Counted from the stretch's first letter, positions 1 to 23,582 are shown. The stretch: DNA of 23,582 nucleotides from a virus (IMGVR_UViG_2925908680_000008), one strand, 5' to 3'. A program made the numbers and translations. The notes: generated by a model not told the origin, from the letters alone.

Positions 1-525
1 TTAATGGGATGATTTTTCCCACTCAGCCAGGGCGTTTAGTCCGGCTTCACTCCAGTTATCCAGCTCATCGGGACAATCACCTGCAACATAGCAGAGCTCA
101 CAACGCAGCATACGAATTGCCAGCCTGGCATTTTCCCGAAAATCATACTGCTCAAAGTAATATTGCCCAGCATAATCCTCAAGGCAGATAGCACCATCAT
201 CAAGAAATTGCACTTCACAGCATAGTTCCCCGGCTGCATCCTGCACACGCTGCTGTATGTCATCGTCCGTTACTGGTGCAGGGATTTTACCGTCTCTGGC
301 CTTAACTGCTTTCCAGAACTCGCCCCACGTCATTTCCAGCGTTCTCTCTGGCCACATTTCAGAAACGGTATCTTTTCCCTGTGCTGGTGGGCTGTTCCGC
401 TGCTCTGTCGCTTCCACATCGATTTTTTTACCGGACATGACCACTTCGCCTTTCTCGATCCAGTCGTAAACTGTCTGGCGGCTTACGCCTTTGTGTTTGG
501 CATATTCTGCCTTGCTCATAAACAT
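1..525 (-). CDS. HTH protein with small-terminase (Nu1/TerS-like) N-terminal domain; candidate packaging or packaging-redirection factor
   Basis: 174 aa; N-terminal MSKAEYAKHKGVSRQTVYDWIEKGEV resembles a TerS/Nu1-type winged HTH; GAGGGGAAG RBS upstream of ATG at 525; last gene of a minus-strand operon. Confidence 0.45.
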   Translation of the reverse strand: MFMSKAEYAKHKGVSRQTVYDWIEKGEVVMSGKKIDVEATEQRNSPPAQGKDTVSEMWPERTLEMTWGEFWKAVKARDGKIPAPVTDDDIQQRVQDAAGELCCEVQFLDDGAICLEDYAGQYYFEQYDFRENARLAIRMLRCELCYVAGDCPDELDNWSEAGLNALAEWEKSSH

Positions 526-695
526 GACACTTCCCCTCAGACTGTATTAATGCGCCGGAAAGCGCGTGTATTTAAATCATCCCAGGAACCGTTGAGCACC
601 AATTAGTTGCGCGAAGTAATCGGCACCAGCGTTCCGAACAATTTCCAACTTAACGTTCTGATCATTGTTTCCTGCTGCAGGGACAATCCCACGAT

Positions 696-1349
696 TCATA
701 GCCAGCGCCCGGATATTTCTTCCAGTTTTTCCAGAGCTGGCTTGCAGGCCGCATCAATAACTTCACGGACCATTCCGGCGAGCTGTTCTTCTTCTGTCGG
801 CGTTGTTACTTCCACACCTGATGGTTTCCCGCCCTTATCCCATACGCCCAACGGTACGAGCGCAACGTGATCGATAAGAAATGGCGTACCCTCAATGAAA
901 AAATTGTCCTCGCCCATTACATCAGGAACTTCTGCCCCACCGGACGCACCACAAAACACAACCGACGGGCTGGTGGATACCTCCCCCCGTGCTTTCTGGA
1001 TGTAATCGATGATTTCCTGCCCGTAAATCCGGCATACGCCCCACACCTCGTCACCGCGAATATACGGCAACATGACGGTGCCAATAATGCGCGACCGTTC
1101 GCCCACGTCTTCAAGGGTTTTGCTTTCGGGATGGTCGATAATGACGGGTACTCCGGCGCAACGTTCCAGGAACTGCGGATTGAGATAAGTTTGCGGTGAA
1201 CGCCAGACAAATTCTTTTTCTTCGGCGCGATAGGCCATTCCGGTTCCTGTGATACGCAGGTTAATCAGCCACATGTTGGAAAACTGATAAGGCGACGGTA
1301 GCTGACCGTCCCGAATCTGCTTTGCCGCCTCAATTTCTGTTAAAAGCAT
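696..1349 (-). CDS. hypothetical protein (217 aa), intact in this copy
   Basis: ATG at 1349 with GGGGGA RBS; protein-like C-terminus; family not recognised. Confidence 0.5.
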   Translation of the reverse strand: MLLTEIEAAKQIRDGQLPSPYQFSNMWLINLRITGTGMAYRAEEKEFVWRSPQTYLNPQFLERCAGVPVIIDHPESKTLEDVGERSRIIGTVMLPYIRGDEVWGVCRIYGQEIIDYIQKARGEVSTSPSVVFCGASGGAEVPDVMGEDNFFIEGTPFLIDHVALVPLGVWDKGGKPSGVEVTTPTEEEQLAGMVREVIDAACKPALEKLEEISGRWL

Positions 1350-1413
1350 AATGTCCCCCGGTTATAAGCAATAAGCCCCACCAAATCCGGCAGGGCTGAA
1401 ATCAGCACGTTTT

Positions 1414-1998
1414 TCATGCCCCCGCGAGGCTTGCAACGTTAATTTTAACCAGGCGACGGGGAGGGATTTTGAAAGCACTAAGCCAGTTATTCGGATCCCC
1501 CTGATATTCAGTAATCCGCCGTCCGGCTTCATCCATTCTTACGGTTTTACGCAAATAGCCCGGCGTATTTTCCACAGCCCACTGAACACTGTCTTTTGCA
1601 GCCTGGTAAATCTGATCTTCCAGCACCGCCAGCGTTGCAGAATCTGAAACGGAACGAATATCCACATCACTGAATTTTTTAGCCAGCTTCTGTGCACCAA
1701 TTAATGCACGCTTGCGGTAATCCATCGACTTTTCACCAGCAAACGGGGCTGGAGCGCGACGGCCCATATTGCTGTATGCGGAATCCGCTTTAGCCTGGGC
1801 TTCTGCCAGTGAGGATTCATCTTCGACTGACGCGACGATGTTTTTATTCGCGTCATCCTCGTCCGCTTTTGTGAAATCCTGTGCGGGGATCGCATTCAGA
1901 ATTTCGATAATCTCCTGCGGAGTGCTGCCCTGCGACTCTGACAGAGCGTTAACCACCTCCATCAGTTTTAATCGCAAATCTTCTTTGCTTGCTGGCAT
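1414..1998 (-). CDS. hypothetical acidic protein (194 aa)
   Basis: ATG at 1998 preceded by GAGGTGG RBS; ORF track start at 2007 is a GTG inside the RBS; family not recognised. Confidence 0.5.
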   Translation of the reverse strand: MPASKEDLRLKLMEVVNALSESQGSTPQEIIEILNAIPAQDFTKADEDDANKNIVASVEDESSLAEAQAKADSAYSNMGRRAPAPFAGEKSMDYRKRALIGAQKLAKKFSDVDIRSVSDSATLAVLEDQIYQAAKDSVQWAVENTPGYLRKTVRMDEAGRRITEYQGDPNNWLSAFKIPPRRLVKINVASLAGA

Positions 1999-2037
1999 TT
2001 TTACCACCTCTCTTTTTTCACCAAAAAATCACGACCA

Positions 2038-2217
2038 TCAGGCCGGACGTTCTACGGGATAAAGCGCCCGCTGCATTAAACGCCGGGCGACCTCATGAAT
2101 GCTCGGAGCAATCCCCAGCGGAGAATTGCGGCGTTCCTCGTCCTGGATGCGCTGTAATGCTTCAATCTGATCACGAGCGAGTAAAACGGGTTTCACGCTG
2201 GCTTTTCTCATAGTCAT
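2038..2217 (-). CDS. small hypothetical protein (59 aa), first gene of terminal operon
   Basis: ATG at 2217 (MTMRKASVK...) preceded by AGGAGA RBS; ORF track start further upstream lacks RBS. Confidence 0.4.
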   Translation of the reverse strand: MTMRKASVKPVLLARDQIEALQRIQDEERRNSPLGIAPSIHEVARRLMQRALYPVERPA

Positions 2218-2346
2218 ATCTCCTGAACAAAACAATGATTATGATTGCACAAACTGAAATAACGATCTACATCATTGCAATTTATGAAACAATAACGCAT
2301 GATGATCGCGTTCTTCCCATTGACTTCAATCACCTGAAAAACAAAG

Positions 2347-2375
2347 CCCGCAACACTTCTGGCTGCGGGTTTTTT
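2347..2375. terminator. hairpin (CCCGCA / TGCGGG, 11-nt loop) followed by T6; U-rich on both strands, possible bidirectional intrinsic terminator
   Basis: Stem-loop read directly from sequence; T-run 2370-2375 on plus, TTTGTTTTT on minus. Confidence 0.45.
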
Positions 2376-2379
2376 ACTG

Positions 2380-2407
2380 GCACAAAAAAGCCGGGAAAAA
2401 TCCCGGC
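2380..2407 (-). terminator. intrinsic terminator downstream of PerC-family gene
   Basis: Minus-strand hairpin GCCGGGA-UUUU-UCCCGGC followed by UUUUUUGUG, immediately after stop at 2413. Confidence 0.6.
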
Positions 2408-2412
2408 CTCCG

Positions 2413-2700
2413 TCACTGACTGCAATTTTTCGATCCAGGGTATTTCCTGAATGCCTTACCATTGGGCTGATGTAATCCCATCCCGGCATGTGCCCGGCTG
2501 ATGGTTTCGCGCATTTCCCCGAAATTATCCTGCCTTGCTGGTGGGCGTGCTGCCTTGCGGATACATTCCGCGCGACGTTTTGCCGCCTGTTCCCGTGCCT
2601 TGTCATCATTCGCCAGCATGATGACCTCAGCCCACCGCGCCGCCGCTCTCCGGTACAGACCACGCGCTTCCAGTGCTTCCGCTTTGCTGTCGTGAATCAT
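2413..2700 (-). CDS. PerC-family transcriptional regulator (PerC homolog, Pch-like)
   Basis: 95 aa; motif KAEALEARGLYRRAAARWAEV matches my recollection of the PerC family signature; start ATG overlaps upstream stop as ATGA. Confidence 0.65.
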   Translation of the reverse strand: MIHDSKAEALEARGLYRRAAARWAEVIMLANDDKAREQAAKRRAECIRKAARPPARQDNFGEMRETISRAHAGMGLHQPNGKAFRKYPGSKNCSQ

Positions 2701-3227
2701 GCGCCTGTTTTCTCCTTTGCTGCCCGGCGCTGACGTTTGCGCTTCTCATTCAGCGCCACCAGCCGCGTTTCTGCGTCCTGTTGTTCCTGTGGTGTCACCT
2801 CGCCGCACGGCTGGCCTTTCAGGTCGTAGCGTACCCCACCAGCCATTAAGGCGCGGTAATAGCGCGGACACTGCGCATAAGATGCCAGCGTCGCACGCAA
2901 TGCCCCTGGACCGAATGCCAGCCCCCTGACGGCGAGATCCTGCATCAGGTCGTCGAATATCCCCACCTTAAGCGGCTTCGGTGCTTCCCGGCTGAATAAT
3001 TCAGGCCACAACTCAGTGAGGCGGTTAACGCGCCTGCGGTTTTTGCGCTGGCGTTTGGTCATATGCCGCCACGGTGTCGCCCCTGTGGGCTTCTGCTGCG
3101 CTTTCTGGTTACCGGGCATCACTTTATGCGCCGATGTGGTTTTATCCTGCTCCTGCGCCGCCTGCGTCGTTTTCTGCGGCGTGCCGTAAATGCCTTTCGG
3201 TTTTCTGTTAATGGTCAGCTTAGTCAT
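2697..3227 (-). CDS. ProQ/FinO-domain RNA-binding protein with basic N-terminal extension
   Basis: PLKVGIFDDL ... LRATLASYAQCPRYYRALMAGGVRYDLKGQPCGEVTPQE closely parallels the ProQ N-terminal FinO-like domain; start taken at ATG 3227 (GGAG RBS), alternative ATG at 3239. Confidence 0.8.
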   Translation of the reverse strand: MTKLTINRKPKGIYGTPQKTTQAAQEQDKTTSAHKVMPGNQKAQQKPTGATPWRHMTKRQRKNRRRVNRLTELWPELFSREAPKPLKVGIFDDLMQDLAVRGLAFGPGALRATLASYAQCPRYYRALMAGGVRYDLKGQPCGEVTPQEQQDAETRLVALNEKRKRQRRAAKEKTGA

Positions 3228-3239
3228 GCTTTGCTCCAT

Positions 3240-3611
3240 CGTTACAACTGTCTACCAACTGTCCACCGATATAATTTATTGATTTATTTGATATTATTTA
3301 CACATAACTAAAAAATAACCTATCAATTGTCTACCAACTGTCTACCGCATTAATACATTGATAATTAATGATTTTTTCAAAATGGTAGACAGAGTAGACA
3401 GTTAAAAGAGAAATTTTAAAAATGAACCCTTAACTATCTGTTTTTTTATATACCCCCCGTGGTTTAGGAATATAGAAACAACTGTCCACTCTCTACCACA
3501 TTTAAAAATATCTATACAATTCAATGCATTAATTGGTAGATGGTTGGTAGAGGATTAAGTATTACTGTCTACCAACCGTCTACCTTTACGTTTCAGCTCA
3601 TAAATTTCGTA
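3240..3611. repeat. iteron-type replication origin with AT-rich unwinding region
   Basis: At least 10 copies of CAACTGTCTACC-like motif in both orientations (e.g. 3245-3267, 3323-3346, 3384-3403, 3479-3497, 3533-3553, 3563-3584) interspersed with AT-rich tracts, directly 3' of the replication gene. Confidence 0.7.
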
Positions 3612-5417
3612 TTATGTTCTGTCGTTAATCCCTGTTGCTGCTGGCAACCAGCTATCAGCATCATCATCTAACAGAACATTTGTTATCACTCGCCCTTTAT
3701 CCTGGCCTTTAGTGCATTTAGCCCGCTTATACTCCTTTCCGTATTCCGCCATAGCACCAGGCATATCAGTGCCAAAGCGTTTCAGTGATACTGGTTTTCC
3801 CAGACCATGCGCTGACATATAGGCTAAATAAGCATGATACAGATATCGCCTCGGGCTAAATGGCACTATTCCCGCATTGCCCACCATCATTCCTTCACAT
3901 TTAACCAACGACATCAGATAGCCGCAAAAGTCCACCAGTGAATCACCCTCACGTTTTATCATCAGAGCCTCTTCTGATTTCTGCTGCTCATATAACAGAC
4001 GTCTGGCTTCATCCTGGTCAGAAAAACGAGTAAGCAGGTGGCGAATAACTACCGCCAGTTCGCCTTCTATTTTTTCCACCAGCATGGGATCGCGTTCGTT
4101 CTCCGGTACGACCTCAGAGAAATTAAATATCACCCTACGACGCGAGATCCCCCCGCTTCGGTCACTGAATGACATGGCGTTATTGTTTACTGCCAGCACT
4201 ACCGCCGGAATACGAGTGGAGTATGGGGCTTTATGTTTCGGGTCGATCGCCACCTTGTCACCACCAGTAATTGCCTTAATTCCTGCACCATCTCCAGCGT
4301 AGCGGGCCATATCCGGCATGATAATCAGCGAAAAGCCAACGACTAACGCGCGTTCCCTTGCGTCTTCCAGCGCCTTCATGCTTGCCGATACTGTATTGAC
4401 CTTACCCGCCAGCATGGTACAAATCTCCGCCATCACACTTTTACCGCTTCCGCCCGGCCCCGTTACCTCAAGGAATAACTGCCAGTCGTACCGGTTCGCC
4501 AGTACCATGAATAATGCCGCCAGTACGCGATCTGCTTTACGATCGTTATTTGCCACCGAACGACGCAGCCACTTCCAGAAATTCGGCGCATGTGTTGCCA
4601 GCGTTTCCCCCTCTGCTGGTGGGCTGAACGGTAATTCACTGGCATTTAACAACCAGTCATTTTTGTTATGCTCCCGAAAATTTCCTGTCCGGGTATCAAA
4701 TACCCCGTTACTGAATCCAATAAGATTCCTGTCTGCCCCGCCCATAACAGGCAGGCTCAATTTCATTGTGTCTACGGCAAATTTAATGGCGTTTTGCGAA
4801 TAACTGATTCCAGCATCAATAAAAATCTTCGCCATAGATCGCTGGAGTTCCTTATCAGATACAGGCTCCCAGACAATTCCGTTGTAATGGTGAACTACAT
4901 CAGAATCGTCATTTATAGCCAGTGCCCTTCCATAATATTCAAGCAATACTTCCCCTCTCTGGCTGGCTCCCATCTGATTTAGTGCTGGCCTGGGTAGGTC
5001 ACTATTTTTTGTGACTAATTTCATCGCTGAAACTTCCCCGCGCTCTGCCTGTTCGCGGATCCGTTGCAGGTAATCGCGCCAGTTCTCCGGCTCCCGGTCG
5101 GTGATGCCTTTGTATAATTTCGCCTCCTGTACGCCAGCCAGTGCCAGTTTTTCAGCGATAGTATTGATCTGGATTGGCTCTATCTCCCCCGCGAGATAGA
5201 CACGCGCAAAGCGGCGTTCATCGTCGACAATGCGGATATTCGCCAGGTCTGCCAGTTGCTTTGGCCCCAGATAAACAGGTGGCACGTTATCGCCGTGTTT
5301 TCGTCCTTCGCTTTCAATCCAGTGTTGAGCATGGGAGTAAGCGTCCGTCCCGGCAAAAATGATTACCTCAGTGAATTTATCCTTCGGCTGATATTTCAAA
5401 TTCGGTGCGTTTTTCAC
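3612..5417 (-). CDS. replication initiation primase/helicase-like protein (P4-family primase C-terminal-type P-loop NTPase)
   Basis: 601 aa; Walker A GPGGSGKS; GTG start at 5417 with GGGAGGT RBS, overlapping upstream stop (GTGA); adjacent iteron origin. Confidence 0.75.
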   Translation of the reverse strand: MKNAPNLKYQPKDKFTEVIIFAGTDAYSHAQHWIESEGRKHGDNVPPVYLGPKQLADLANIRIVDDERRFARVYLAGEIEPIQINTIAEKLALAGVQEAKLYKGITDREPENWRDYLQRIREQAERGEVSAMKLVTKNSDLPRPALNQMGASQRGEVLLEYYGRALAINDDSDVVHHYNGIVWEPVSDKELQRSMAKIFIDAGISYSQNAIKFAVDTMKLSLPVMGGADRNLIGFSNGVFDTRTGNFREHNKNDWLLNASELPFSPPAEGETLATHAPNFWKWLRRSVANNDRKADRVLAALFMVLANRYDWQLFLEVTGPGGSGKSVMAEICTMLAGKVNTVSASMKALEDARERALVVGFSLIIMPDMARYAGDGAGIKAITGGDKVAIDPKHKAPYSTRIPAVVLAVNNNAMSFSDRSGGISRRRVIFNFSEVVPENERDPMLVEKIEGELAVVIRHLLTRFSDQDEARRLLYEQQKSEEALMIKREGDSLVDFCGYLMSLVKCEGMMVGNAGIVPFSPRRYLYHAYLAYMSAHGLGKPVSLKRFGTDMPGAMAEYGKEYKRAKCTKGQDKGRVITNVLLDDDADSWLPAATGINDRT

Positions 5418-5704
5418 TTCTTACCTCCCGCAACCAACATTGCTCGGATTTTTTTAATATTCGTGGCTGCACGTCTCGCCACCGCCTGTTGTTTGTTTTC
5501 CATCAGAATAAAATCACGATCAAACTGACGGCGCGGCATTACGCAGTCATATTCGTAAGCCTCACGGCGGTAGGTGATATTGCCTGGCGTAACGTGACGA
5601 ATAACCACTCGTCCCCCGCGTCTGGTGTCGCGGTAAATATCGCCGTGTCTGATTTCAGGCCGAGCGGGGCCGCTGGCAGTAAAGCCAGAATTTTTCTGTT
5701 TCAT
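5414..5704 (-). CDS. hypothetical basic protein (96 aa), coupled to replication gene
   Basis: ATG at 5704 with AGGAAAA RBS; stop overlaps start of downstream gene. Confidence 0.5.
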   Translation of the reverse strand: MKQKNSGFTASGPARPEIRHGDIYRDTRRGGRVVIRHVTPGNITYRREAYEYDCVMPRRQFDRDFILMENKQQAVARRAATNIKKIRAMLVAGGKK

Positions 5705-5708
5705 GGTT

Positions 5709-5909
5709 TTATTTTCCTGTCAGCAGTTCCGGTTTTATTTCCGCACGAATACAGAGTTCAGAAAAAAATTCAGGAGAACCAACAATCTCATTACTTTTCA
5801 GTCGGCATTGTGATTTCACTTTTCCTTTATCCAGGTAAACCAGTATGCGTCCGGTGAAATCATCTGGCGCACTCAGGGTAATTGTCATTGTTGCTTGCTG
5901 ATTATCCAT
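5709..5909 (-). CDS. hypothetical protein (66 aa)
   Basis: ATG overlaps upstream stop (ATGGATAA); tight operon arrangement. Confidence 0.45.
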   Translation of the reverse strand: MDNQQATMTITLSAPDDFTGRILVYLDKGKVKSQCRLKSNEIVGSPEFFSELCIRAEIKPELLTGK

Positions 5910-7118: not shown

Positions 7119-7175
7119 CCACTATCAGCGCCATAGTTTGAGGAACGCAGGCGCATTGCTTTACAGGACAGCACC

Positions 7176-14763: not shown

Positions 14764-14768
14764 CTCCG

Positions 14769-15583: not shown

Positions 15584-15595
15584 GCTTTGCTCCAT

Positions 15596-15967: not shown

Positions 15968-17773
15968 TTATGTTCTGTCGTTAATCCCTGTTGCTGCTGG
16001 CAACCAGCTATCAGCATCATCATCTAACAGAACATTTGTTATCACTCGCCCTTTATCCTGGCCTTTAGTGCATTTAGCCCGCTTATACTCCTTTCCGTAT
16101 TCCGCCATAGCACCAGGCATATCAGTGCCAAAGCGTTTCAGTGATACTGGTTTTCCCAGACCATGCGCTGACATATAGGCTAAATAAGCATGATACAGAT
16201 ATCGCCTCGGGCTAAATGGCACTATTCCCGCATTGCCCACCATCATTCCTTCACATTTAACCAACGACATCAGATAGCCGCAAAAGTCCACCAGTGAATC
16301 ACCCTCACGTTTTATCATCAGAGCCTCTTCTGATTTCTGCTGCTCATATAACAGACGTCTGGCTTCATCCTGGTCAGAAAAACGAGTAAGCAGGTGGCGA
16401 ATAACTACCGCCAGTTCGCCTTCTATTTTTTCCACCAGCATGGGATCGCGTTCGTTCTCCGGTACGACCTCAGAGAAATTAAATATCACCCTACGACGCG
16501 AGATCCCCCCGCTTCGGTCACTGAATGACATGGCGTTATTGTTTACTGCCAGCACTACCGCCGGAATACGAGTGGAGTATGGGGCTTTATGTTTCGGGTC
16601 GATCGCCACCTTGTCACCACCAGTAATTGCCTTAATTCCTGCACCATCTCCAGCGTAGCGGGCCATATCCGGCATGATAATCAGCGAAAAGCCAACGACT
16701 AACGCGCGTTCCCTTGCGTCTTCCAGCGCCTTCATGCTTGCCGATACTGTATTGACCTTACCCGCCAGCATGGTACAAATCTCCGCCATCACACTTTTAC
16801 CGCTTCCGCCCGGCCCCGTTACCTCAAGGAATAACTGCCAGTCGTACCGGTTCGCCAGTACCATGAATAATGCCGCCAGTACGCGATCTGCTTTACGATC
16901 GTTATTTGCCACCGAACGACGCAGCCACTTCCAGAAATTCGGCGCATGTGTTGCCAGCGTTTCCCCCTCTGCTGGTGGGCTGAACGGTAATTCACTGGCA
17001 TTTAACAACCAGTCATTTTTGTTATGCTCCCGAAAATTTCCTGTCCGGGTATCAAATACCCCGTTACTGAATCCAATAAGATTCCTGTCTGCCCCGCCCA
17101 TAACAGGCAGGCTCAATTTCATTGTGTCTACGGCAAATTTAATGGCGTTTTGCGAATAACTGATTCCAGCATCAATAAAAATCTTCGCCATAGATCGCTG
17201 GAGTTCCTTATCAGATACAGGCTCCCAGACAATTCCGTTGTAATGGTGAACTACATCAGAATCGTCATTTATAGCCAGTGCCCTTCCATAATATTCAAGC
17301 AATACTTCCCCTCTCTGGCTGGCTCCCATCTGATTTAGTGCTGGCCTGGGTAGGTCACTATTTTTTGTGACTAATTTCATCGCTGAAACTTCCCCGCGCT
17401 CTGCCTGTTCGCGGATCCGTTGCAGGTAATCGCGCCAGTTCTCCGGCTCCCGGTCGGTGATGCCTTTGTATAATTTCGCCTCCTGTACGCCAGCCAGTGC
17501 CAGTTTTTCAGCGATAGTATTGATCTGGATTGGCTCTATCTCCCCCGCGAGATAGACACGCGCAAAGCGGCGTTCATCGTCGACAATGCGGATATTCGCC
17601 AGGTCTGCCAGTTGCTTTGGCCCCAGATAAACAGGTGGCACGTTATCGCCGTGTTTTCGTCCTTCGCTTTCAATCCAGTGTTGAGCATGGGAGTAAGCGT
17701 CCGTCCCGGCAAAAATGATTACCTCAGTGAATTTATCCTTCGGCTGATATTTCAAATTCGGTGCGTTTTTCAC
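15968..17773 (-). CDS. replication initiation primase/helicase-like protein, copy 2
   Basis: Duplicate of 3612-5417. Confidence 0.75.
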   Translation of the reverse strand: MKNAPNLKYQPKDKFTEVIIFAGTDAYSHAQHWIESEGRKHGDNVPPVYLGPKQLADLANIRIVDDERRFARVYLAGEIEPIQINTIAEKLALAGVQEAKLYKGITDREPENWRDYLQRIREQAERGEVSAMKLVTKNSDLPRPALNQMGASQRGEVLLEYYGRALAINDDSDVVHHYNGIVWEPVSDKELQRSMAKIFIDAGISYSQNAIKFAVDTMKLSLPVMGGADRNLIGFSNGVFDTRTGNFREHNKNDWLLNASELPFSPPAEGETLATHAPNFWKWLRRSVANNDRKADRVLAALFMVLANRYDWQLFLEVTGPGGSGKSVMAEICTMLAGKVNTVSASMKALEDARERALVVGFSLIIMPDMARYAGDGAGIKAITGGDKVAIDPKHKAPYSTRIPAVVLAVNNNAMSFSDRSGGISRRRVIFNFSEVVPENERDPMLVEKIEGELAVVIRHLLTRFSDQDEARRLLYEQQKSEEALMIKREGDSLVDFCGYLMSLVKCEGMMVGNAGIVPFSPRRYLYHAYLAYMSAHGLGKPVSLKRFGTDMPGAMAEYGKEYKRAKCTKGQDKGRVITNVLLDDDADSWLPAATGINDRT

Positions 17774-18060
17774 TTCTTACCTCCCGCAACCAACATTGCT
17801 CGGATTTTTTTAATATTCGTGGCTGCACGTCTCGCCACCGCCTGTTGTTTGTTTTCCATCAGAATAAAATCACGATCAAACTGACGGCGCGGCATTACGC
17901 AGTCATATTCGTAAGCCTCACGGCGGTAGGTGATATTGCCTGGCGTAACGTGACGAATAACCACTCGTCCCCCGCGTCTGGTGTCGCGGTAAATATCGCC
18001 GTGTCTGATTTCAGGCCGAGCGGGGCCGCTGGCAGTAAAGCCAGAATTTTTCTGTTTCAT
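17770..18060 (-). CDS. hypothetical basic protein (96 aa), copy 2
   Basis: Duplicate of 5414-5704. Confidence 0.5.
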   Translation of the reverse strand: MKQKNSGFTASGPARPEIRHGDIYRDTRRGGRVVIRHVTPGNITYRREAYEYDCVMPRRQFDRDFILMENKQQAVARRAATNIKKIRAMLVAGGKK

Positions 18061-18064
18061 GGTT

Positions 18065-18265
18065 TTATTTTCCTGTCAGCAGTTCCGGTTTTATTTCCGC
18101 ACGAATACAGAGTTCAGAAAAAAATTCAGGAGAACCAACAATCTCATTACTTTTCAGTCGGCATTGTGATTTCACTTTTCCTTTATCCAGGTAAACCAGT
18201 ATGCGTCCGGTGAAATCATCTGGCGCACTCAGGGTAATTGTCATTGTTGCTTGCTGATTATCCAT
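18065..18265 (-). CDS. hypothetical protein (66 aa), copy 2
   Basis: Duplicate of 5709-5909. Confidence 0.45.
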   Translation of the reverse strand: MDNQQATMTITLSAPDDFTGRILVYLDKGKVKSQCRLKSNEIVGSPEFFSELCIRAEIKPELLTGK

Positions 18266-18623
18266 AATTCACCCCCTGAATAACCTGATAACCGCAACTG
18301 GTCAGCAATTCGATAAATTCCGGCAGTGTTCCGAAACAGCAATCATCTCGCAGCCGTTCTCGGGATACTTCAACGCCGTTTTCGTAGTGACTCACCATGC
18401 GTCCGGTAAAATGCAAATCATCATCGTGATGGCACGTTGACGGTTTAATCAGTCGCGCACGCTCTGCCAGTTCCAGCAATGCTTCAACACTTCCGGCAAT
18501 TGCACCATCCGGCAGGTGGTAATTACGCACTATGCGCCCGTTCTCCACATGGACCAGTAGCTGCCCGGTAAATATCTCGTCAAACTGAATGCTGTTAAGG
18601 TCAGAAATTGACAGGTTATGCAT
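18258..18623 (-). CDS. hypothetical protein (121 aa), copy 2
   Basis: Duplicate of 5902-6267. Confidence 0.5.
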   Translation of the reverse strand: MHNLSISDLNSIQFDEIFTGQLLVHVENGRIVRNYHLPDGAIAGSVEALLELAERARLIKPSTCHHDDDLHFTGRMVSHYENGVEVSRERLRDDCCFGTLPEFIELLTSCGYQVIQGVNYG

Positions 18624-18981
18624 GGTGCACCTCCTGGCGAATACGGGCAGCGAATACCATCACGCAGCCATCAGGAGATTGCTGGCGTGCTTCCTGTTCG
18701 CTGGTGGCCTCGATGTGAATTACACGCGGTTGTGCCGTACTCAGGGCGATAAAACGCCAGATAAAATTGTTCTCGCATTTCTGAATAAACAGCGTGTTTT
18801 CTTCGCGCCCTTTCCATGTTGCCGAGATATAGCCCATGTCATTGAGCATCTCGCAGGCATCAACCAGCGTATCGGCGGCTACGTGTACAGTGTTTTTACC
18901 GTCAGCTATGCAATCACGGTGCACCGCCAGGAAGGTGTATATAAATTTAGGGTGAGTTTGGGTATGCTGTGTTCCAGCCAT
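18616..18981 (-). CDS. hypothetical protein (121 aa), copy 2
   Basis: Duplicate of 6260-6625. Confidence 0.5.
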   Translation of the reverse strand: MAGTQHTQTHPKFIYTFLAVHRDCIADGKNTVHVAADTLVDACEMLNDMGYISATWKGREENTLFIQKCENNFIWRFIALSTAQPRVIHIEATSEQEARQQSPDGCVMVFAARIRQEVHHA

Positions 18982-19168
18982 AATCGTTACCTCGTTTAAC
19001 GGTTTGGTTAGACGCCCCGCTACTGCCGCAAACAGTTCGGGGCGTTGTCGTTTACATCCTCTTACTGAGGTGTGATTTAAATTAAATTCAACTGAATCAC
19101 AGGTCAAGTATTTTTTGTGATTCTTTTTTGTGTATACTGAATCACATCTTTTGTTTAGGAGAATGCAC

Positions 19169-19474
19169 ATGGCAAAAAACACTATCAACGACAAATCAAA
19201 ACAGATTTCAATTCGTATCCCACATGATGCTTTTGATGGCATGGAATCCGTAAAACTGGACGGCGAAAGCAACGCCGGATTCATAGTAACCGCCATGCGC
19301 GGTGAGATCGCCCGCCGCCAGGCAGAAGGAAGAGGAGAAAACCCCCTGGTTTCTTCGCTCGATGCACTGGCGCAGGTGGAAAAAATCGGTGTCAAAGCTG
19401 CCGAGGAGATCGGGCAACTCGTCACCGTCGCGCGTGAAGAACTCCAGCGACGCAAGGTCAAAGAGCAGGAATAG
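19169..19474 (+). CDS. putative ribbon-helix-helix regulator, copy 2
   Basis: Duplicate of 6813-7118. Confidence 0.45.
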   Translation: MAKNTINDKSKQISIRIPHDAFDGMESVKLDGESNAGFIVTAMRGEIARRQAEGRGENPLVSSLDALAQVEKIGVKAAEEIGQLVTVAREELQRRKVKEQE

Positions 19475-19531
19475 CCACTATCAGCGCCATAGTTTGAGGA
19501 ACGCAGGCGCATTGCTTTACAGGACAGCACC

Positions 19532-19711
19532 ATGAGCGACACAGAATCAACCAAAACACCATCACCAACTCGTAAGAGACGACGCAAAAATATAGCGCAT
19601 GAACATGAATCAGAAAGATTCGCACCTTGTTCGTTTGCTCTTGAGAAATTCCTTAAAGAGCACAGGAAAAAGCTCTCGTTGCAAACCTTGGAACGAACCA
19701 AATCTGACTGA
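19532..19711 (+). CDS. small basic hypothetical protein, copy 2
   Basis: Duplicate of 7176-7355. Confidence 0.3.
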   Translation: MSDTESTKTPSPTRKRRRKNIAHEHESERFAPCSFALEKFLKEHRKKLSLQTLERTKSD

Positions 19712-20112
19712 TCACATTGCCCACCAGCCGCAAATGTGGCATTGTTGGTGATGCGTTCAAGTTTGATTTGCCGTAATACCCACTGGCGACCCTCTGCGGT
19801 CGCCTTTGTTTTATCCAGAACGAAATCAGACATCAGATTGATCAGCACCTGGCGACCTGACAAAATCGTATCGGTCGCGCCACCAGCAAAATTTTTTGCT
19901 TTCCGGACGATGTGGCCAACGGTATTTTGCAGCAAAATATTCTGCATTTCTGGCGTGCTGTGGCGACGGTGATCAGCGCCTTCACATTGAACGAACTTGT
20001 CGCTAAAATTCACCCACATAGCAAACATCGCGGTGCTGTAGGTAATTCGTTCACAAAGGCGCTCCGGCAACGGGGCGCTTTCTCTTTTTGTAACGGTCAG
20101 AGCGTTACACAT
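19711..20112 (-). CDS. hypothetical protein coupled to ant, 3' end undefined, copy 2
   Basis: Duplicate of 7355-7756. Confidence 0.4.
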
Positions 20113-20905
20113 GGCTGTTTTCCTCCATGCGACGGGCTAACCAACGCTGCGAAAGACGAATTAATTCAGCTTTCCGCTGGTGGTAGTCCTGGCCTAACTC
20201 AATCAGCGTGATATTGCTCCGCTCAAGGTAAGAAAGGTGCTCAAGCTGCAACGTGCTCATGTGGTCGCGTGGTTCACCTGTGATGCCGTTCGCCTGCGCC
20301 CACTGTTTTGCAGTCATGCCACCCAGCACGATACGCGCCAGCATATTGGCTTCCGTGGTGTAGTGGTGCTGTAGAGTGTTTTTACCCAGTTCAGTCCGGT
20401 ACGCCTCCAGCGCGGCGCACATCGGCTTAAAGTAGCTGGCAACGGTGATACGGGCTTTCAGTTCCCTGCGTAACGCTGCGGAACGCACTGGCGCTACCTT
20501 GTGTAGCTCCTCCTCGCATTTGATGAAGTACTGACGAACGGCACGGCCCTGTTCGGTGCGTTCGACCATCGCCAGTTCTTTTGCCATGTTCACGGTGATG
20601 ATGTACTCAAGAGCGGTTTGCTGGCGAGATTTTGCGCTCACCGGATCGGGTCGGCTCAAATATTCAACAACTTCATAATCCACGCCTTCCGTGAAGCCGT
20701 ATTCTTCAATGCGCCCCTTGATCCACGAACGGAAAACGCGCCCTACACCTAACGCCTTATGCAACGCTCTGGCGCTAACAATATTGGTTTCACGCCCGCC
20801 AATAACGCCGGAAATAACCGGGATAATTTCGCCAAAATTTTGCAGATTCTGGTTTTCAGGCCGAACGAAGCCCTGCCCCTGTACGGGCGTTTTTCGCAGT
20901 TTCAT
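20105..20905 (-). CDS. phage antirepressor-like protein, copy 2
   Basis: Duplicate of 7749-8549. Confidence 0.6.
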   Translation of the reverse strand: MKLRKTPVQGQGFVRPENQNLQNFGEIIPVISGVIGGRETNIVSARALHKALGVGRVFRSWIKGRIEEYGFTEGVDYEVVEYLSRPDPVSAKSRQQTALEYIITVNMAKELAMVERTEQGRAVRQYFIKCEEELHKVAPVRSAALRRELKARITVASYFKPMCAALEAYRTELGKNTLQHHYTTEANMLARIVLGGMTAKQWAQANGITGEPRDHMSTLQLEHLSYLERSNITLIELGQDYHQRKAELIRLSQRWLARRMEENSHV

Positions 20906-20983
20906 AAAAACTCCTGCTATCGAATTAAGTTACTTTTATTTGCTGGTGGATAGCTGGGGGCTTCTGGCCCCGTAGCCATTTAA

Positions 20984-21181
20984 TCAGGTAGCTGTTCCGC
21001 GTGATTCAGCAATACGCTGATTAATCCACTCGTCAATTTCACTCTCAACGAAAGCAATAGCTCGCGAGCCAATTTTAACTGATGCAGGAAATTTACCTTG
21101 CCCCATAAGGCGATAAATCCATGCCTTGCTATATCCAGTTCTACGCTGAACTTCTGTTAAACGAATAAGCGTATTTGACAT
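20984..21181 (-). CDS. alpA: AlpA-family regulator, copy 2
   Basis: Duplicate of 8628-8825. Confidence 0.85.
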   Translation of the reverse strand: MSNTLIRLTEVQRRTGYSKAWIYRLMGQGKFPASVKIGSRAIAFVESEIDEWINQRIAESRGTAT

Positions 21182-21249
21182 ATATTTACCTCATAACGTC
21201 TACTCAATTTGACGAGGTAATCCTGGCACAGAAATAACGAATATTTTCA

Positions 21250-21426
21250 TACCCTCAGGCCTAATGGTTACCGGAAGGAAATTAACCCTAAGGGTGATGG
21301 TAATCGGAAGGAAATTAACCCTAAGGGTGATGGTAATCGGGAGGAAATCTACCCTAAGGGTGATGGTAAAATTGACGGGGAAGATAAAAAAATACCCTCA
21401 GGGTAACAGTAAATCACCCTCAGGGT
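21250..21426. promoter_or_regulatory. palindromic 33-bp repeat array upstream of alpA, copy 2
   Basis: Duplicate of 8894-9070. Confidence 0.55.
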
Positions 21427-21441
21427 ATGCGGTATGGTGCG

Positions 21442-22239
21442 TTAATCCGGCTTTGCGTTCTTTTGGCTGTTGTCTCGGTTAATAGGGCAGGCAGTCCTCT
21501 CTATGAGCGTTGCAAGTGCATTACTTGCCCCCCACTGCTTAAGCTCCCTGGTTATCGCTTCTTGATTTCCCCTGGTGGCAAAATCATTTTCTGGATCGTA
21601 ATTGGCCCACTCTCTGTTTCTAATCTCAATAGCCTTAGCTAATGGGTCTTTATCCCAGTATTTATATAAGTGTATCGGGCGCTCTTGCTCTAACTGCTCT
21701 ATCCTTGCCCTTAACTCTGCGTTTTCTTTTTCCAGCATTGCGATTTGGGATAATAAATCATCCTCTGTACGCAACTCTTTCTTTTCAATATCGCGTCCTT
21801 GTGCCTCGTCATTTTCAGAAGAGTTAGCGCCTTCCAGCTTCGTTAACGCGTCAAGGACATCGGGAAAAATTGCGAAAATTTCACCCCTTATAAATCCAAT
21901 GTTCTCAAATTCGGGATCTTCCCAATAACCGGACACCAGAAAACCATTTTCATCCCTCTCACCAGGTAAACAACCACGTTTCCGAACCGCATTCAGATTT
22001 CTATAAAGAACATCATAATCAAATTCATCCCGATACGGGTTACAAAAAGATTCCAACAGCTTAAATTCATTTACTGTGTACAGGCGGATATGTTCTCCGC
22101 TTATTCTCCTGAGTATCCAAGTTATGACATCTGAAACATCATAATCATCACCAGCGACCTTAAGCACGACCTCAAGAAATTCACGTAAAGAAATAAAATC
22201 TTTTTTGTATTCGTTTAATTCGGCATGAATATCAATCAT
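21442..22239 (-). CDS. uncharacterised cargo protein (265 aa), copy 2
   Basis: Duplicate of 9086-9883. Confidence 0.55.
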   Translation of the reverse strand: MIDIHAELNEYKKDFISLREFLEVVLKVAGDDYDVSDVITWILRRISGEHIRLYTVNEFKLLESFCNPYRDEFDYDVLYRNLNAVRKRGCLPGERDENGFLVSGYWEDPEFENIGFIRGEIFAIFPDVLDALTKLEGANSSENDEAQGRDIEKKELRTEDDLLSQIAMLEKENAELRARIEQLEQERPIHLYKYWDKDPLAKAIEIRNREWANYDPENDFATRGNQEAITRELKQWGASNALATLIERTACPINRDNSQKNAKPD

Positions 22240-22367
22240 ACGCACACCTCAGCGTCCTCTACTGTAGTGGCTGTACCAGTCCGTCGAGGTGTACGGATTT
22301 TCGGGAGCGACCCTAGACACAGCCTTTTCTTTCGTCGCTCAAAGTCTACTACTGTATACGCAACCAG

Positions 22368-23582
22368 TCATCCACATTTTCCGAACTTGCCATGCACCAC
22401 GTTACCGCCATGCTCGAGCGAATCCATATAGTCGGCATACCACTGGAGCATCTCCCGGCGACCATCCAGATATTGCGCATGGTTGTATGTGCCACGAATT
22501 GAGTTTTTATCGACGTGTGCGAGCTGCGTCTCTATCCACGCGGTGTTATAGCCCTGCTCATGCAAAATGGTGCTCATGGTGTGCCGGAATCCATGACCAG
22601 TAACGCGCCCGGCATAGCCGATACGACGAATGAGCACATTCATCGCCATTTCACTCATTGGCTTACTGTGGTGAATACGACCGGGGAAAATAAACTGATA
22701 CTGGCCTGTCATGTTTTTTAACTGCTCCAGTATTTTTATTGCCTGTTCTGGTAATGGCACGCAATGCGGACGGCGCATCTTCATTCGTTCTTTAGGCACT
22801 TCCCACAAACGATTATCAAAATCGATCTCCTGCCATTCTGCCTGCCGTAATTCCCCGGGTCTGACACCTGTCAGAATTAATAGCCGCATTGCCAGTTTGA
22901 CGATCTGGCTTCCGGTGTACGTATTAAAAACGCGGAAAAATTCCGGCAGTTCGTCGGCCTTCAAATAGGCGTAATGCTCTTTTTTATGTGGAGCAAATGC
23001 GCTCACCAGATCAGGGGCTGGATTATATTCGGCGCGTCCGGTGATGATTGCGTACCGGAACACCTCGCCGCATCGCTGGCGAACCTTACGCAATTTTTCA
23101 GTCGCACCACGGTCATTAAGACGGGAAAGAACCGCCAGCAATTCCATCGGCTTAATTTCTGCGATCGGCCTACCGCCAATGTACGGAAAAACATCTTTTT
23201 CAAACGTCTCGATCATTTCCTCGGCGTATGACGATGACCACCTGTCGATCCGCTTTTCGTACCATTCGCGAGCAATACCCTCAAAAGTATTGCCAAATTT
23301 GCTCGCCTGTTCTCGCTTTTGGGCTTTTCTGGCCTCACTTGGATTTATACCACCAGCAAGAAGCCTTTTAGCCTCATCCCTTGCCGCCCTGGCATCAGAC
23401 AGGGACACATCAGGGTACACACCCAACGACAACATTTTGGGCTTTCCTGCAAACCTGTAGCGCAGTCGCCACCCTTTCGAACCGTTCGGCTCAATGAGCA
23501 ACGAAAGCCCGTTACCGTCATTGAGTGTATAAGCCTTTTCTTTCGGCTTCGCGCGCCTGATGGCAAGGTCTGAAAGCAGCAT
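22368..23582 (-). CDS. int: P4-type tyrosine integrase, copy 2 (window ends at its start codon)
   Basis: Identical 404-aa translation to 10012-11226. Confidence 0.9.
   Translation of the reverse strand: MLLSDLAIRRAKPKEKAYTLNDGNGLSLLIEPNGSKGWRLRYRFAGKPKMLSLGVYPDVSLSDARAARDEAKRLLAGGINPSEARKAQKREQASKFGNTFEGIAREWYEKRIDRWSSSYAEEMIETFEKDVFPYIGGRPIAEIKPMELLAVLSRLNDRGATEKLRKVRQRCGEVFRYAIITGRAEYNPAPDLVSAFAPHKKEHYAYLKADELPEFFRVFNTYTGSQIVKLAMRLLILTGVRPGELRQAEWQEIDFDNRLWEVPKERMKMRRPHCVPLPEQAIKILEQLKNMTGQYQFIFPGRIHHSKPMSEMAMNVLIRRIGYAGRVTGHGFRHTMSTILHEQGYNTAWIETQLAHVDKNSIRGTYNHAQYLDGRREMLQWYADYMDSLEHGGNVVHGKFGKCG

What the first reader, a model, noticed from the sequence alone, without database searches (positions are those of the whole stretch)
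1..23582. Head-to-tail tandem duplication of a ~12.36 kb integrase-bearing satellite element
Positions 1-11226 recur at 12359-23582 with identical ORF translations at a constant offset (12358, then 12357, then 12356 nt). The single junction 11227-12358 links the int 5' end of copy 1 to the TerS-like end of copy 2. A tyrosine-integrase element normally sits as one copy between attL and attR, so a dimer implies tandem integration or amplification at one att site, a captured replicative concatemer, or an assembly artefact of a circular excised form.
Basis: seen in the sequence. Interest (0 to 1): 0.6.

Follow-up and report, generated by a model that had tools for sequence, protein, structure and literature searches.

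The report
Two tandem copies of a phage satellite
The window is a slice of an E. coli chromosome holding two head-to-tail copies of a known 12.4-kb phage satellite at a glycine tRNA gene; the copies are joined by an intact attachment site, an arrangement already known for integrating elements.

Summary
Window 1-11226 equals 12359-23582 with 0 mismatches and two 1-base deletions, both in A6 runs.

The window is not a whole contig. It is CP024997.2:3644615-3668196, an internal slice of a 5.17-Mb swine E. coli chromosome, cut at two gene boundaries.

In that record the array reads actS, tRNA-Gly(glyU)/attL, copy A, attP-type joint, copy B, attR, ygeQ. Host DNA therefore flanks a complete dimer. 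This rules out a circularisation overlap or a free concatemer.

The unit is a PICI-type satellite syntenic with the tested EcCICFT073: P4-type integrase, AlpA, primase plus iteron origin, PerC, and a different packaging module. The joint at 11391-11408 is the 18-bp 3' end of tRNA-Gly, with arm-type repeats on both sides. It is the product of integrase recombination, not of a random duplication.

Clone-mates U90, cq9 and CP100062.1 have identical flanks and one identical copy. A second record, CP025036.2, has at least 3 copies. None of 5,426 RefSeq complete genomes has the joint.

The differences between copies look like long-read consensus errors. Without reads, an assembler copy-number error remains possible (about 25%).

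Tandem multimers are well documented for SGI1 and expected by SatelliteFinder. The finding is ordinary and of modest interest.

The parts
1..11390 (-). Copy B, the unit farther from the tRNA. It runs from the stop of the 174-aa gene to the int-side arm. Its own 950-bp distal arm and attR lie just left of the window.
   Evidence: 100% identical to the single copies in cq9 and U90. Position in CP024997.2.
11391..11408 (.). attP-type core TGGAGCGGGCGAAGGGAA, the last 18 nt of tRNA-Gly(glyU), joining the two units.
   Evidence: The same core lies at attL inside the tRNA gene. At attR it carries a 1-bp deletion.
11227..11390 (.). Int-side arm (P') of the att site, with CTATACAC-type and AGTAGACGTT repeats.
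   Evidence: the repeat finder D3 and D10. Identical to the sequence next to the tRNA in single-copy strains.
11409..12358 (.). Distal arm (P) of the unit. It holds TTCTATACACAT x2.2 (11466-11491), a 14-nt perfect inverted repeat (arms 11521-11534 and 11545-11558), the 59-aa gene and the TTGACAC repeat array.
   Evidence: Identical to the attR-side end of the element in U90.
11409..23582 (-). Copy A, the unit next to the tRNA. It runs from its distal arm to the int ATG. The remaining 182 bp up to attL lie right of the window.
   Evidence: It carries the two 1-base A-run deletions.
10012..11226 (-). Tyrosine integrase, 404 aa, P4 type. Second copy at 22368-23582.
   Evidence: Pfam Arm-DNA-bind_3, Phage_int_M and Phage_integrase. 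NCBIfam PRK09692 at 1e-96, below that model's curated cutoff of 434 bits.
9900..9967 (-). int-alpA RNA motif (RF02996). Second copy at 22256-22323.
   Evidence: Rfam, 45.5 bits against a gathering score of 35.8.
9086..9883 (-). 265-aa protein of unknown function between int and alpA. Second copy at 21442-22239.
   Evidence: No hit in Pfam, PHROGs, PADLOC or NCBIfam. Annotated as hypothetical in U90.
8908..9013 (.). 33-bp tandem repeat x3.2 upstream of alpA, with further ACCCTnAGGGT palindromes across 8893-9071. A candidate operator. Second copy at 21264-21369.
   Evidence: TRF score 177 and the repeat finder. The operator function is inferred.
8628..8825 (-). AlpA regulator, 65 aa. Second copy at 20984-21181.
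   Evidence: Pfam Phage_AlpA 2.4e-19. 36% identical to EcCICFT073 AlpA.
7749..8549 (-). AntA/AntB anti-repressor-like protein, 266 aa. Second copy at 20105-20905.
   Evidence: Pfam AntA 2.4e-23. PHROG anti-repressor.
6260..7118 (.). Icd-like division inhibitor (6260-6928, minus strand) and YlcI/YnfO (6813-7118, plus strand). The 498-aa ORF at 6260-7756 is probably an over-long reading.
   Evidence: RefSeq annotation of the identical copy in U90. Homologues in EcCICFT073.
3612..5704 (-). Replication genes: DUF4222 protein (5414-5704) and primase/helicase of 601 aa (3612-5417). Second copies at 17770-18060 and 15968-17773.
   Evidence: Pfam D5_N, DUF5906 and Pox_D5. PHROG DNA primase 4e-155. 44% identical to the EcCICFT073 primase, E 1e-173.
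3244..3600 (.). Candidate replication origin: at least 7 direct and several inverted 11-bp iterons (CCAACTGTCTAC) around an AT-rich core. Second copy at 15600-15956.
   Evidence: the repeat finder. GC 30.6% against about 49% for the window as a whole. The origin function is inferred from its position after pri, as in PICIs (PMC6092414).
2413..3227 (-). ProQ/FinO-family protein (2697-3227) and PerC-family activator (2413-2700). Second copies at 15053-15583 and 14769-15056.
   Evidence: Pfam ProQ 8e-24 and PerC 2e-32.
696..2211 (-). Candidate capsid-morphogenesis module: 57 aa (2038-2211), 194 aa (1414-1998) and 217-aa DUF2213 (696-1349). In copy 2 the DUF2213 gene (13054-13706) is frameshifted.
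   Evidence: The 217-aa and 194-aa proteins match successive parts of one PHROG (phrog_6216, 2e-79 and 8e-47). The 217-aa protein also weakly matches a head maturation protease and Pfam DUF2213.
1..525 (-). 174-aa protein with an N-terminal winged helix, in the position that Rpp holds in EcCICFT073. Second copy at 12359-12883.
   Evidence: phrog_57 terS on residues 1-42 only. [quoted passage not shown] No PDB sequence hit.
12085..12345 (.). Six direct copies and one inverted copy of TTGACAC(T)TTTTCGCG, just downstream of the 174-aa gene. Candidate packaging-recognition or regulator-binding sites.
   Evidence: The function is inferred.
11874..12053 (-). Conserved 59-aa terminal gene of the family.
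   Evidence: Found in 749 blocks of the assembly collection, always last before attR. 27% identical to the last gene of EcCICFT073.
903..903 (.). A6 run that reads A5 at 13261 in copy 2. The loss frameshifts DUF2213 there.
2028..2028 (.). A6 run that reads A5 at 14385 in copy 2. It is intergenic, between the 57-aa and 194-aa genes.

Best explanation
The window is an internal slice of the chromosome of a swine Stx2e E. coli (CP024997.2:3644615-3668196). It carries two complete head-to-tail copies of a 12.36-kb PICI-type phage satellite integrated at the 3' end of tRNA-Gly (glyU).

Shown: the array is attL, unit, attP, unit, attR with host DNA on both sides. The joint between units is an intact attP, consisting of the 18-bp tRNA-derived core plus both arms with their repeated motifs. 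The unit is identical to single copies in clone-mates.

Inferred: the dimer was made by the element's own integrase. Three routes are possible. A circular multimer, produced by concatemeric replication or delivered in a full-size helper capsid, may have integrated in one step. A second circle may have integrated into the attL or attR of a resident copy. Or attL may have recombined with attR between sister chromosomes. The array would then shrink or grow by homologous recombination.

The two 1-base differences between the copies are best read as residual long-read consensus errors, not mutations.
For: Source and flanks. The frameshifted 180-aa variant occurs on one contig only, CP024997.2. The reverse complement of the window is found exactly once in the merged loci. 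The gene order there is xdhA, actS, int...174aa, 59aa, int...174aa, 59aa, GH15, GhoT.

att sites. The three att sites have the expected hybrid flanks. The arms carry repeats on both sides of the core.

Clone-mates. The 9.4 kb of host flanks are 100% identical to U90, cq9 and CP100062.1. Each of these carries one copy, and copy B is 100% identical to the cq9 copy.

Support from other records.
- CP025036.2 has at least 3 units and two perfect attP joints.
- UDGT01000003.1 has an attL, remnant, attP, full element arrangement at the same site.
- A metagenome contig of a related element runs through attP without host DNA.
- A relative is deposited as a separate 10.8-kb circular 'plasmid'. Excised forms can therefore assemble as their own replicon rather than being added to the chromosome.

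Satellite identity. The unit is syntenic and homologous with EcCICFT073. It has an iteron origin and no phage structural or lysis genes.

Literature. EcCICFT073 replicates as concatemers and is packaged in phage-sized capsids, that is, as multimers (PMC6092414). SGI1 forms chromosomal head-to-tail multimers with an attP-equivalent joint in about 10-47% of transconjugants across experiments (PMC12217951, PMC3285670).
Against: No reads were available, so the copy number rests on the deposited assembly alone.

The joint is absent from all 5,426 RefSeq complete E. coli genomes, including 255 that carry one or both arms. It is also absent from the GTDB representatives and from IMG/VR.

Arrays appear only in two GenBank records with neighbouring accession numbers, and neither record is in the RefSeq set searched. 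The three closest clone-mates have one copy.

Indel errors sit inside the arrays. The flanks and copy B have none, copy A has 2, and copy 3 of CP025036.2 has 8 indel events (9 bases) in 2.3 kb. This shows weak unique read support there. The route of formation (multimer, second integration or sister exchange) is not resolved by the sequence.
Confidence: 0.7

Rival explanations
1. Assembler copy-number artefact. The strain carries one integrated copy, and long reads from excised, replicating circles or concatemers (or a mis-resolved repeat graph) led the assembler to place an extra unit in the chromosome path.
For: Arrays are seen only in CP024997.2 and CP025036.2. Clone-mates have one copy, and no RefSeq complete genome has the joint. 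Indel-type consensus errors cluster inside the arrays, with 8 indel events (9 bases) in 2.3 kb after a joint in CP025036.2. A concatemer gives exactly the same attP joint. The family does excise.
Against: Placing two units between unique flanks needs reads that link a flank, a full unit and the joint. Excised forms of a relative were assembled as a separate circle, not added to the chromosome. PICI induction normally needs a helper phage (PMC6092414), so abundant concatemers in an ordinary culture are not expected. A remnant tandem at the same site in an unrelated assembly shows that such arrays do arise.
Confidence: 0.25
2. Free replicative concatemer, or a circular excised form written out more than once because of a contig overlap.
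For: The window itself has no host DNA, and the repeat reaches both of its ends.
Against: The window is an exact internal slice of a 5,167,254-bp chromosome, with attL/tRNA-Gly 182 bp to the right and attR/ygeQ 950 bp to the left. Its ends coincide with gene boundaries, so they are cuts made when the window was extracted.
Confidence: 0.02
3. Ordinary segmental duplication by homologous or illegitimate recombination, unrelated to the element's att sites. A variant is amplification selected for gene dosage.
For: Tandem duplications are common in bacteria, and the copy number differs between the two records (2 against at least 3).
Against: The joint falls exactly on the 18-bp att core with both arms intact. 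The only direct repeats flanking a single copy are the 17-18-bp cores, which are too short for efficient RecA exchange. Nothing here tests for a dosage benefit.
Confidence: 0.03

Closest known systems
EcCICFT073, the experimentally characterised E. coli PICI (Fillol-Salom et al. 2018, PMC6092414; 2019, PMC6739421)
   Same: Unidirectional order of int, AlpA, YlcI/Icd-like, DUF4222, primase, then PerC, a packaging/capsid module, an HTH protein and a small terminal gene. Protein identities are primase 44%, DUF4222 51%, PerC 53%, Icd-like 74%, AlpA 36%, and terminal gene 27%. Both are about 11-12 kb and lack tail and lysis genes.
   Different: The integrase is only 26% identical and uses a different att site (glyU here, next to roxA in CFT073). 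EcCICFT073 carries capsid and decoration genes plus Rpp. This element instead carries a DUF2213 (protease-like) protein, a 194-aa protein and a 174-aa protein that shares only the N-terminal HTH with Rpp. No lambda-type cosN was found. EcCICFT073 is described as a single copy.
SGI1 chromosomal multimers (Doublet et al. 2008, cited in PMC3285670; Veress et al. 2025, PMC12217951)
   Same: An integrative mobilisable element with a tyrosine integrase that replicates when excised and is found as head-to-tail chromosomal arrays. The joint (DRL-DRR) is equivalent to attP. Arrays decay by homologous recombination.
   Different: SGI1 is a 42-kb conjugatively mobilised island at trmE, not a phage satellite. 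Its multimers were shown by PCR and qPCR in fresh transconjugants, not read from a deposited genome.
Tandem satellites in SatelliteFinder (de Sousa et al. 2023, PMC10085698)
   Same: The tool has a post-processing step for 'tandem occurrences of similar satellites'. It delimits an element from int to its farthest core gene, which matches the way this window is cut.
   Different: That paper treats tandems as an annotation problem. In the passages read it does not describe identical copies joined by attP.
Satellite P4 and P4-like elements
   Same: P4-type integrase at a tRNA gene, an AlpA/Vis-type regulator, and a primase with the P4-family C-terminal domain (TIGR01613, 2e-27, below the model's curated cutoff). 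From my own knowledge, P4 can be packaged as dimers or trimers in P2-size heads.
   Different: No Psu, Delta or Sid-type genes were detected in the Pfam and PHROG scans. No P2/P4-type cos was found, although that pattern was recalled from memory.

Membership tests
Gram-negative PICI (Fillol-Salom 2018; de Sousa 2023 core set) | Integrase at one end, integrated at a specific att site | tested here: met
   A 404-aa tyrosine integrase. attL, attP and attR carry an 18-bp core equal to the 3' end of tRNA-Gly glyU.
Gram-negative PICI (Fillol-Salom 2018; de Sousa 2023 core set) | AlpA-type regulator | tested here: met
   Pfam Phage_AlpA 2.4e-19. Rfam int-alpA RNA lies between int and the next gene.
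Gram-negative PICI (Fillol-Salom 2018; de Sousa 2023 core set) | Primase-replicase followed by an origin | tested here: met
   A 601-aa D5_N/DUF5906/Pox_D5 primase, 44% identical to the EcCICFT073 Pri. Iterons and an AT-rich core lie at 3244-3600, directly after it. Origin activity itself was not tested.
Gram-negative PICI (Fillol-Salom 2018; de Sousa 2023 core set) | Unidirectional transcription, about 10-15 kb, no tail, lysis or portal genes | tested here: met
   All assigned genes except YlcI are on one strand, and the unit is 12,358 bp. No structural or lysis family appears in Pfam or PHROGs beyond DUF2213.
Gram-negative PICI (Fillol-Salom 2018; de Sousa 2023 core set) | Capsid-morphogenesis gene | tested here: inconclusive
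   The 217-aa DUF2213 and the 194-aa proteins match one PHROG of unknown function. The 217-aa protein matches a head maturation protease only weakly, at 5.7e-05.
Gram-negative PICI (Fillol-Salom 2018; de Sousa 2023 core set) | Small-terminase-like or Rpp packaging factor | tested here: inconclusive
   The 174-aa protein matches phrog_57 terS on residues 1-42 only. [quoted passage not shown]
Gram-negative PICI (Fillol-Salom 2018; de Sousa 2023 core set) | Helper-phage-induced excision, replication, packaging and interference | not testable with these tools
   Indirect evidence only: a metagenome contig crossing attP and a relative deposited as a 10.8-kb circle.
Rpp family (RppA/RppC, PDB 6HLK and 6HN7) | Sequence or whole-fold homology to Rpp | tested here: not met
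   Neither phmmer nor a 34-sequence profile finds 6HLK at E up to 1 and 10 respectively. Foldseek gives no PDB match at E up to 0.001. Pairwise similarity to CFT073 Rpp covers 25 N-terminal residues only. As a positive control, CFT073 Rpp finds 6HLK at 5e-31.
P4-like satellite | psu-delta-sid capsid-hijack operon and epsilon | tested here: not met
   No such families appear among the Pfam or PHROG hits for any ORF of the unit. Dedicated Sid and Delta profiles were not available.
cfPICI | Own capsid, portal, head-tail connectors and TerL | tested here: not met
   None was detected.
Site-specific tandem multimer of an integrative element | Identical units head to tail, joined by attP (distal arm, core, int-side arm) | tested here: met
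Site-specific tandem multimer of an integrative element | Array bounded by attL and attR with host DNA | tested here: met
   Seen in the source record CP024997.2. The flanks are identical to single-copy clone-mates.
Site-specific tandem multimer of an integrative element | Physical support: spanning reads, two-fold depth, or a joint detected in clonal culture | not testable with these tools
   No read data could be reached.

The most novel reading that the evidence does not exclude
Tandem PICI arrays may be the chromosomal footprint of multimer transduction. A satellite concatemer cut to helper-capsid length (three or four 12.36-kb units would fill a lambda- or Stx-phage-size head) would circularise in the recipient and integrate in one step. 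Array copy number would then record the helper's capsid capacity. A weaker add-on concerns the lesions that distinguish the extra copies: 3 of 5 fall in the 654-bp DUF2213 gene. They could be real, which would mean extra doses of that gene are counter-selected.
Probability: 0.15. Interest if true: 0.5.

Novelty: new member of a known kind. Interest (0 to 1): 0.25.

Why it matters
The significance is modest.

- The finding gives a sequence-level example of a phage satellite present as an attP-joined array rather than as the textbook single copy.
- This matters for satellite annotation. Tools that delimit an element from int to its farthest core gene will merge or mis-size such arrays.
- It matters for copy-number-sensitive analyses of satellite cargo, here the PerC-like, ProQ/FinO-like and AntA-like regulators.
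- It is a lead on whether multimeric packaging, reported for EcCICFT073, leaves arrays in recipients.
- It is also a quality-control caution. The differences between copies are consensus errors concentrated inside the repeat, and one of them creates a false pseudogene.

Tried and rejected
- Circular contig or free concatemer: rejected once the source chromosome was found.
- Phage or plasmid origin: no megablast hit in 50,697 phage records. Plasmid records gave only partial hits, at most 16% of the unit, the best being a misfiled circular relative.
- attP 37-mer scans: none in IMG/VR or the GTDB representatives, and one metagenome contig.
- Tandem copies among relatives: self-BLAST of 80 IMG/VR loci found none, but only about 10 of them are long enough to show one. 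Among the assembly loci only CP024997.2, CP025036.2 and the UDGT01 remnant show repeats.
- Ends of the CP025036.2 array: not reached. The two look-ups together yielded only 24.9 kb of it.
- Strain and sequencing-platform information: two literature searches gave nothing usable.
- cos sites: no lambda cosN with up to 2 mismatches, and no P2/P4 cos (pattern recalled from memory) with fewer than 5 mismatches.
- Defence cargo: no PADLOC hit except a weak PDC-S22 match in AntA.
- The attR 1-bp deletion as a clue to how the dimer formed: it is clone-specific, but it is compatible with every integrase-mediated route, so it does not discriminate.
- The copy differences as real mutations: rejected. Almost all are indels with no accompanying substitutions, they sit at different positions in each copy, and they are confined to the array interior.

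Full report
**1. Observation**

A self-comparison of the window shows that 1-11226 and 12359-23582 are the same sequence. The alignment spans 11226 columns with 0 mismatches and 2 gaps. The two gaps are single-base losses at 13261 and 14385. Each shortens an A6 run to A5.

The repeat runs to both ends of the window. Position 1 is the last base of the stop codon of a 174-aa gene, and position 23582 is the A of the int start codon. The ends are therefore cuts at gene calls, not contig ends.

**2. Where the window comes from**

The frameshifted 180-aa reading of the DUF2213 gene in copy 2 is a unique marker. An exact-protein look-up finds it on one contig only, CP024997.2 (GCA_002804345.3), a 5,167,254-bp E. 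coli chromosome. Merging two overlapping loci from that record and searching for the reverse complement of the window gives one exact match, at CP024997.2:3644615-3668196. The record is cited elsewhere only as the source of an Stx2e gene.

The gene order in the record is: xdhA, actS, [tRNA-Gly], int ... 174 aa, 59 aa, int ... 174 aa, 59 aa, GH15 (ygeQ), GhoT, IS4.

Three att sites are present:
- attL: tRNA body + TTCCCTTCGCCCGCTCCA + int-side arm.
- Internal joint: distal arm + the same perfect core + int-side arm. This is an attP.
- attR: distal arm + the core with one C missing + host DNA.

The units are 12,356 and 12,358 bp. The window lacks only 182 bp on the right and 950 bp on the left to reach attL and attR. 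A complete dimer therefore sits between host flanks. A circularisation overlap and a free concatemer are both excluded.

**3. What the unit is**

All assigned genes but one lie on the minus strand. In transcription order they are:
- a P4-type tyrosine integrase;
- the Rfam int-alpA RNA motif;
- a 265-aa protein of unknown function;
- AlpA;
- an AntA-like protein;
- Icd-like and YlcI/YnfO genes (RefSeq annotation of the identical copy in U90);
- two phrog_340 proteins;
- DUF4222;
- a 601-aa D5_N/DUF5906/Pox_D5 primase;
- an AT-rich (30.6% GC) region with at least 7 direct and several inverted 11-bp iterons, which I read as the origin;
- ProQ/FinO-like and PerC-like proteins;
- a 57-aa protein, then 194-aa and 217-aa (DUF2213) proteins that match successive parts of one PHROG, the 217-aa one also matching a head-maturation protease weakly;
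- a 174-aa protein with an N-terminal winged helix;
- an array of TTGACAC(T)TTTTCGCG repeats;
- a conserved 59-aa gene.

There are no portal, tail, lysis or large-terminase genes.

The experimentally studied PICI EcCICFT073 (NC_004431.1:1377930-1388654) has the same order and recognisable homologues. Identities are primase 44% (E 1e-173), DUF4222 51%, PerC 53%, Icd-like 74%, AlpA 36%, and terminal small gene 27%.

Its penultimate gene is Rpp, which matches PDB 6HLK at 5e-31. The 174-aa protein here occupies that position but is not an Rpp:
- Single-sequence and profile searches of the PDB miss 6HLK.
- Foldseek on a confident model (pLDDT 88.7) finds nothing significant.

'TerS-like' is thus true of one domain only.

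The element meets the PICI criteria that can be tested here: int, AlpA, pri plus ori, one transcription direction, size, and absence of virion genes. It lacks the P4 and cfPICI hallmarks. The same unit, 100% identical, is annotated in RefSeq genomes U90 and cq9 as a single copy at glyU.

**4. The joint**

The core at 11391-11408 is the last 18 nt of tRNA-Gly. Both arms carry short repeated motifs of the kind used as arm-type integrase sites. These are CTATACAC-type repeats at 11245-11275 and 11457-11491, and AGTAGACGTT at 11303 and 11367.

The joint is therefore exactly what attL x attR recombination, or the integration of a circle or a multimer, would produce. The 1-bp deletion in attR is specific to this clone. 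Other lineages have a perfect attR, and every attP seen has the perfect core: here, twice in CP025036.2, and in a metagenome contig. This is compatible with each integrase-mediated route and does not choose among them.

**5. Is the dimer real?**

Evidence for:
- The 4.0-kb and 5.4-kb host flanks are 100% identical to U90, cq9 and CP100062.1, so the assembly is accurate outside the array and belongs to the same clone.
- A second record, CP025036.2, has at least three consecutive units with two perfect joints.
- An unrelated assembly, UDGT01000003.1, has tRNA/attL, 449 bp of the int side, an N, about 460 bp of the distal side, an attP-type core and then a full related element. This is either a decayed or a collapsed tandem at the same site.
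- A related element in a metagenome contig runs through attP with no host DNA.
- A relative is deposited as a 10.8-kb circular 'plasmid'. The family therefore excises, and excised forms can assemble as separate circles.

Evidence against:
- The joint is in none of 5,426 RefSeq complete genomes, 255 of which carry an arm.
- The three closest clone-mates have one copy.
- The two array-bearing records have neighbouring accession numbers and are not in the RefSeq set.
- The differences between copies are confined to the array interior and are almost all indels at a different position in each copy. Copy A has 2. CP025036.2 has 2 in copy 1, 1 complex lesion in copy 2, and 8 indel events (9 bases) in the first 2.3 kb of copy 3.

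I read these differences as long-read consensus errors left where reads cannot be placed uniquely, not as mutations. Real divergence would include substitutions. The errors show that unique read support inside the arrays was thin.

I put the probability of a physical dimer at about 0.7, and of an assembler copy-number error at about 0.25.

**6. Mechanism**

Shown: an attP-joined dimer at glyU.

Inferred: it was formed by the element's integrase. The published biology of the nearest tested relative makes a one-step route plausible. EcCICFT073 replicates as concatemers, and all of its packaged DNA is phage-sized, so the terminase must skip sites and virions carry multimers (PMC6092414). A multimer that circularises in the recipient has several attP sites and would integrate as an array. 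Re-integration of a circle into attL or attR, or attL x attR exchange between sister chromosomes, would give the same product.

The same arrangement is experimentally documented for SGI1, another self-replicating element with a tyrosine integrase. About 10-47% of transconjugants across experiments carry head-to-tail arrays whose joint equals attP. These decay by homologous recombination (PMC12217951, PMC3285670). A copy number that differs between the two records (2 against at least 3) fits such instability.

No lambda- or P2-type cos site was found in the unit, so the helper phage and the packaging mode are unknown. The TTGACAC repeat array next to the 174-aa gene is a candidate recognition site by position only.

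**7. Comparison and novelty**

The element is a member of a known family, and identical copies are already annotated. Tandem multimers of integrative elements are known. SatelliteFinder has a step for tandem satellites and delimits elements from int to the farthest core gene (PMC10085698). That probably explains how this window came to span int of one copy to the 174-aa gene of the other.

What may be new is only the concrete case of identical PICI copies joined by attP. I rate it a new member of a known kind, with interest 0.25.

**8. Unexplained**

Three of the five lesions in the three near-complete extra copies fall in the 654-bp DUF2213 gene, which is 5% of the unit (my own binomial estimate, not run with a tool, gives p of about 0.001). 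Each is at a different position. Proximity to the joints and chance are the likely causes. Selection against a second functional copy is a low-probability alternative.

Noticed in passing
L010 + L038 (CP025036.2:4912752-4937689): A second GenBank chromosome carries at least 3 consecutive copies of the same unit with two perfect attP joints. Copy 3 has 8 indel events (9 bases) in its first 2.3 kb, 6 of them in int. The ends of the array were not reached.
   Followed up: partly
L028:8911-10266 (GCA_900482035.1 UDGT01000003.1): At the same glyU site the order is tRNA/attL, 449 bp identical to the start of the following element, an 'N', about 460 bp of a distal arm, an attP-type core, then a full related satellite. 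This is either a decayed tandem or a collapsed one.
   Followed up: partly
L030:9700-10010 (GCA_036681765.1 JAQMVI010000001.1): A related satellite with the identical 404-aa integrase is inserted at the 5' end of the type I-E cas5 gene, using only 14 of the 18 core bases (CTTCGCCCGCTCCA). This is a secondary att site in a CRISPR-Cas operon. The same genome has another family member at glyU.
   Followed up: partly
L126 (NZ_CP148328.1, 'plasmid pZ1323HEC0475-3', 10,790 bp): This record, deposited as a non-mobilisable plasmid, holds a satellite-like gene set: int, AlpA, YlcI, Icd-like, DUF4222, primase and a protease-capsid fusion. It is probably an excised circular satellite assembled as its own replicon.
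   Followed up: partly
L013 (metagenome contig Ga0209547_100127, 14,517 bp): A related satellite, 88-99% identical in its shared parts, whose contig crosses attP and has no host DNA at either end. It represents a circular, concatemeric or tandem form in an environmental sample.
   Followed up: partly
window 8893-9071 (and 21249-21427): A 33-bp tandem repeat x3.2, plus further ACCCTnAGGGT palindromes, lies in the region upstream of alpA. It may be the operator for AlpA auto-activation.
   Followed up: no
window 3244-3600 (and 15600-15956): At least 7 direct and several inverted 11-bp iterons (CCAACTGTCTAC) flank an AT-rich core (30.6% GC) directly after the primase gene. This is a likely origin of replication.
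   Followed up: partly
window 12085-12345: Six direct copies and one inverted copy of TTGACAC(T)TTTTCGCG lie between the 174-aa HTH gene and the 59-aa gene. The motif begins with the sigma-70 -35 hexamer. Its function is unknown.
   Followed up: no
window 696-1349 against 13054-13706; CP025036.2 copies 1 and 2: In every extra copy the DUF2213 gene is broken, each time by a different indel. That is 3 of 5 lesions in 5% of the unit. They are probably consensus errors near the joints, but the clustering is not explained.
   Followed up: partly
window 6260-7756: The 498-aa ORF here has no family hit. It overlaps the annotated Icd-like gene (6260-6928) and, on the other strand, YlcI/YnfO (6813-7118). 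Gene callers disagree on it from one assembly to another (498, 222, 171 or 121 aa).
   Followed up: no
attR in CP024997.2, U90, cq9 and CP100062.1 (e.g. L001:18003-18019 on the locus + strand): The attR core lacks one C (TTCCCTTCGCC-GCTCCA) in this swine clone and in one further draft assembly (L040). It is perfect in other lineages with the same element. It is a clone marker that survives in the dimer.
   Followed up: yes
window 2413-3227: The satellite carries a PerC-family activator and a ProQ/FinO-family RNA-binding protein. A dimer would double their dose. No link to virulence regulation was tested.
   Followed up: no
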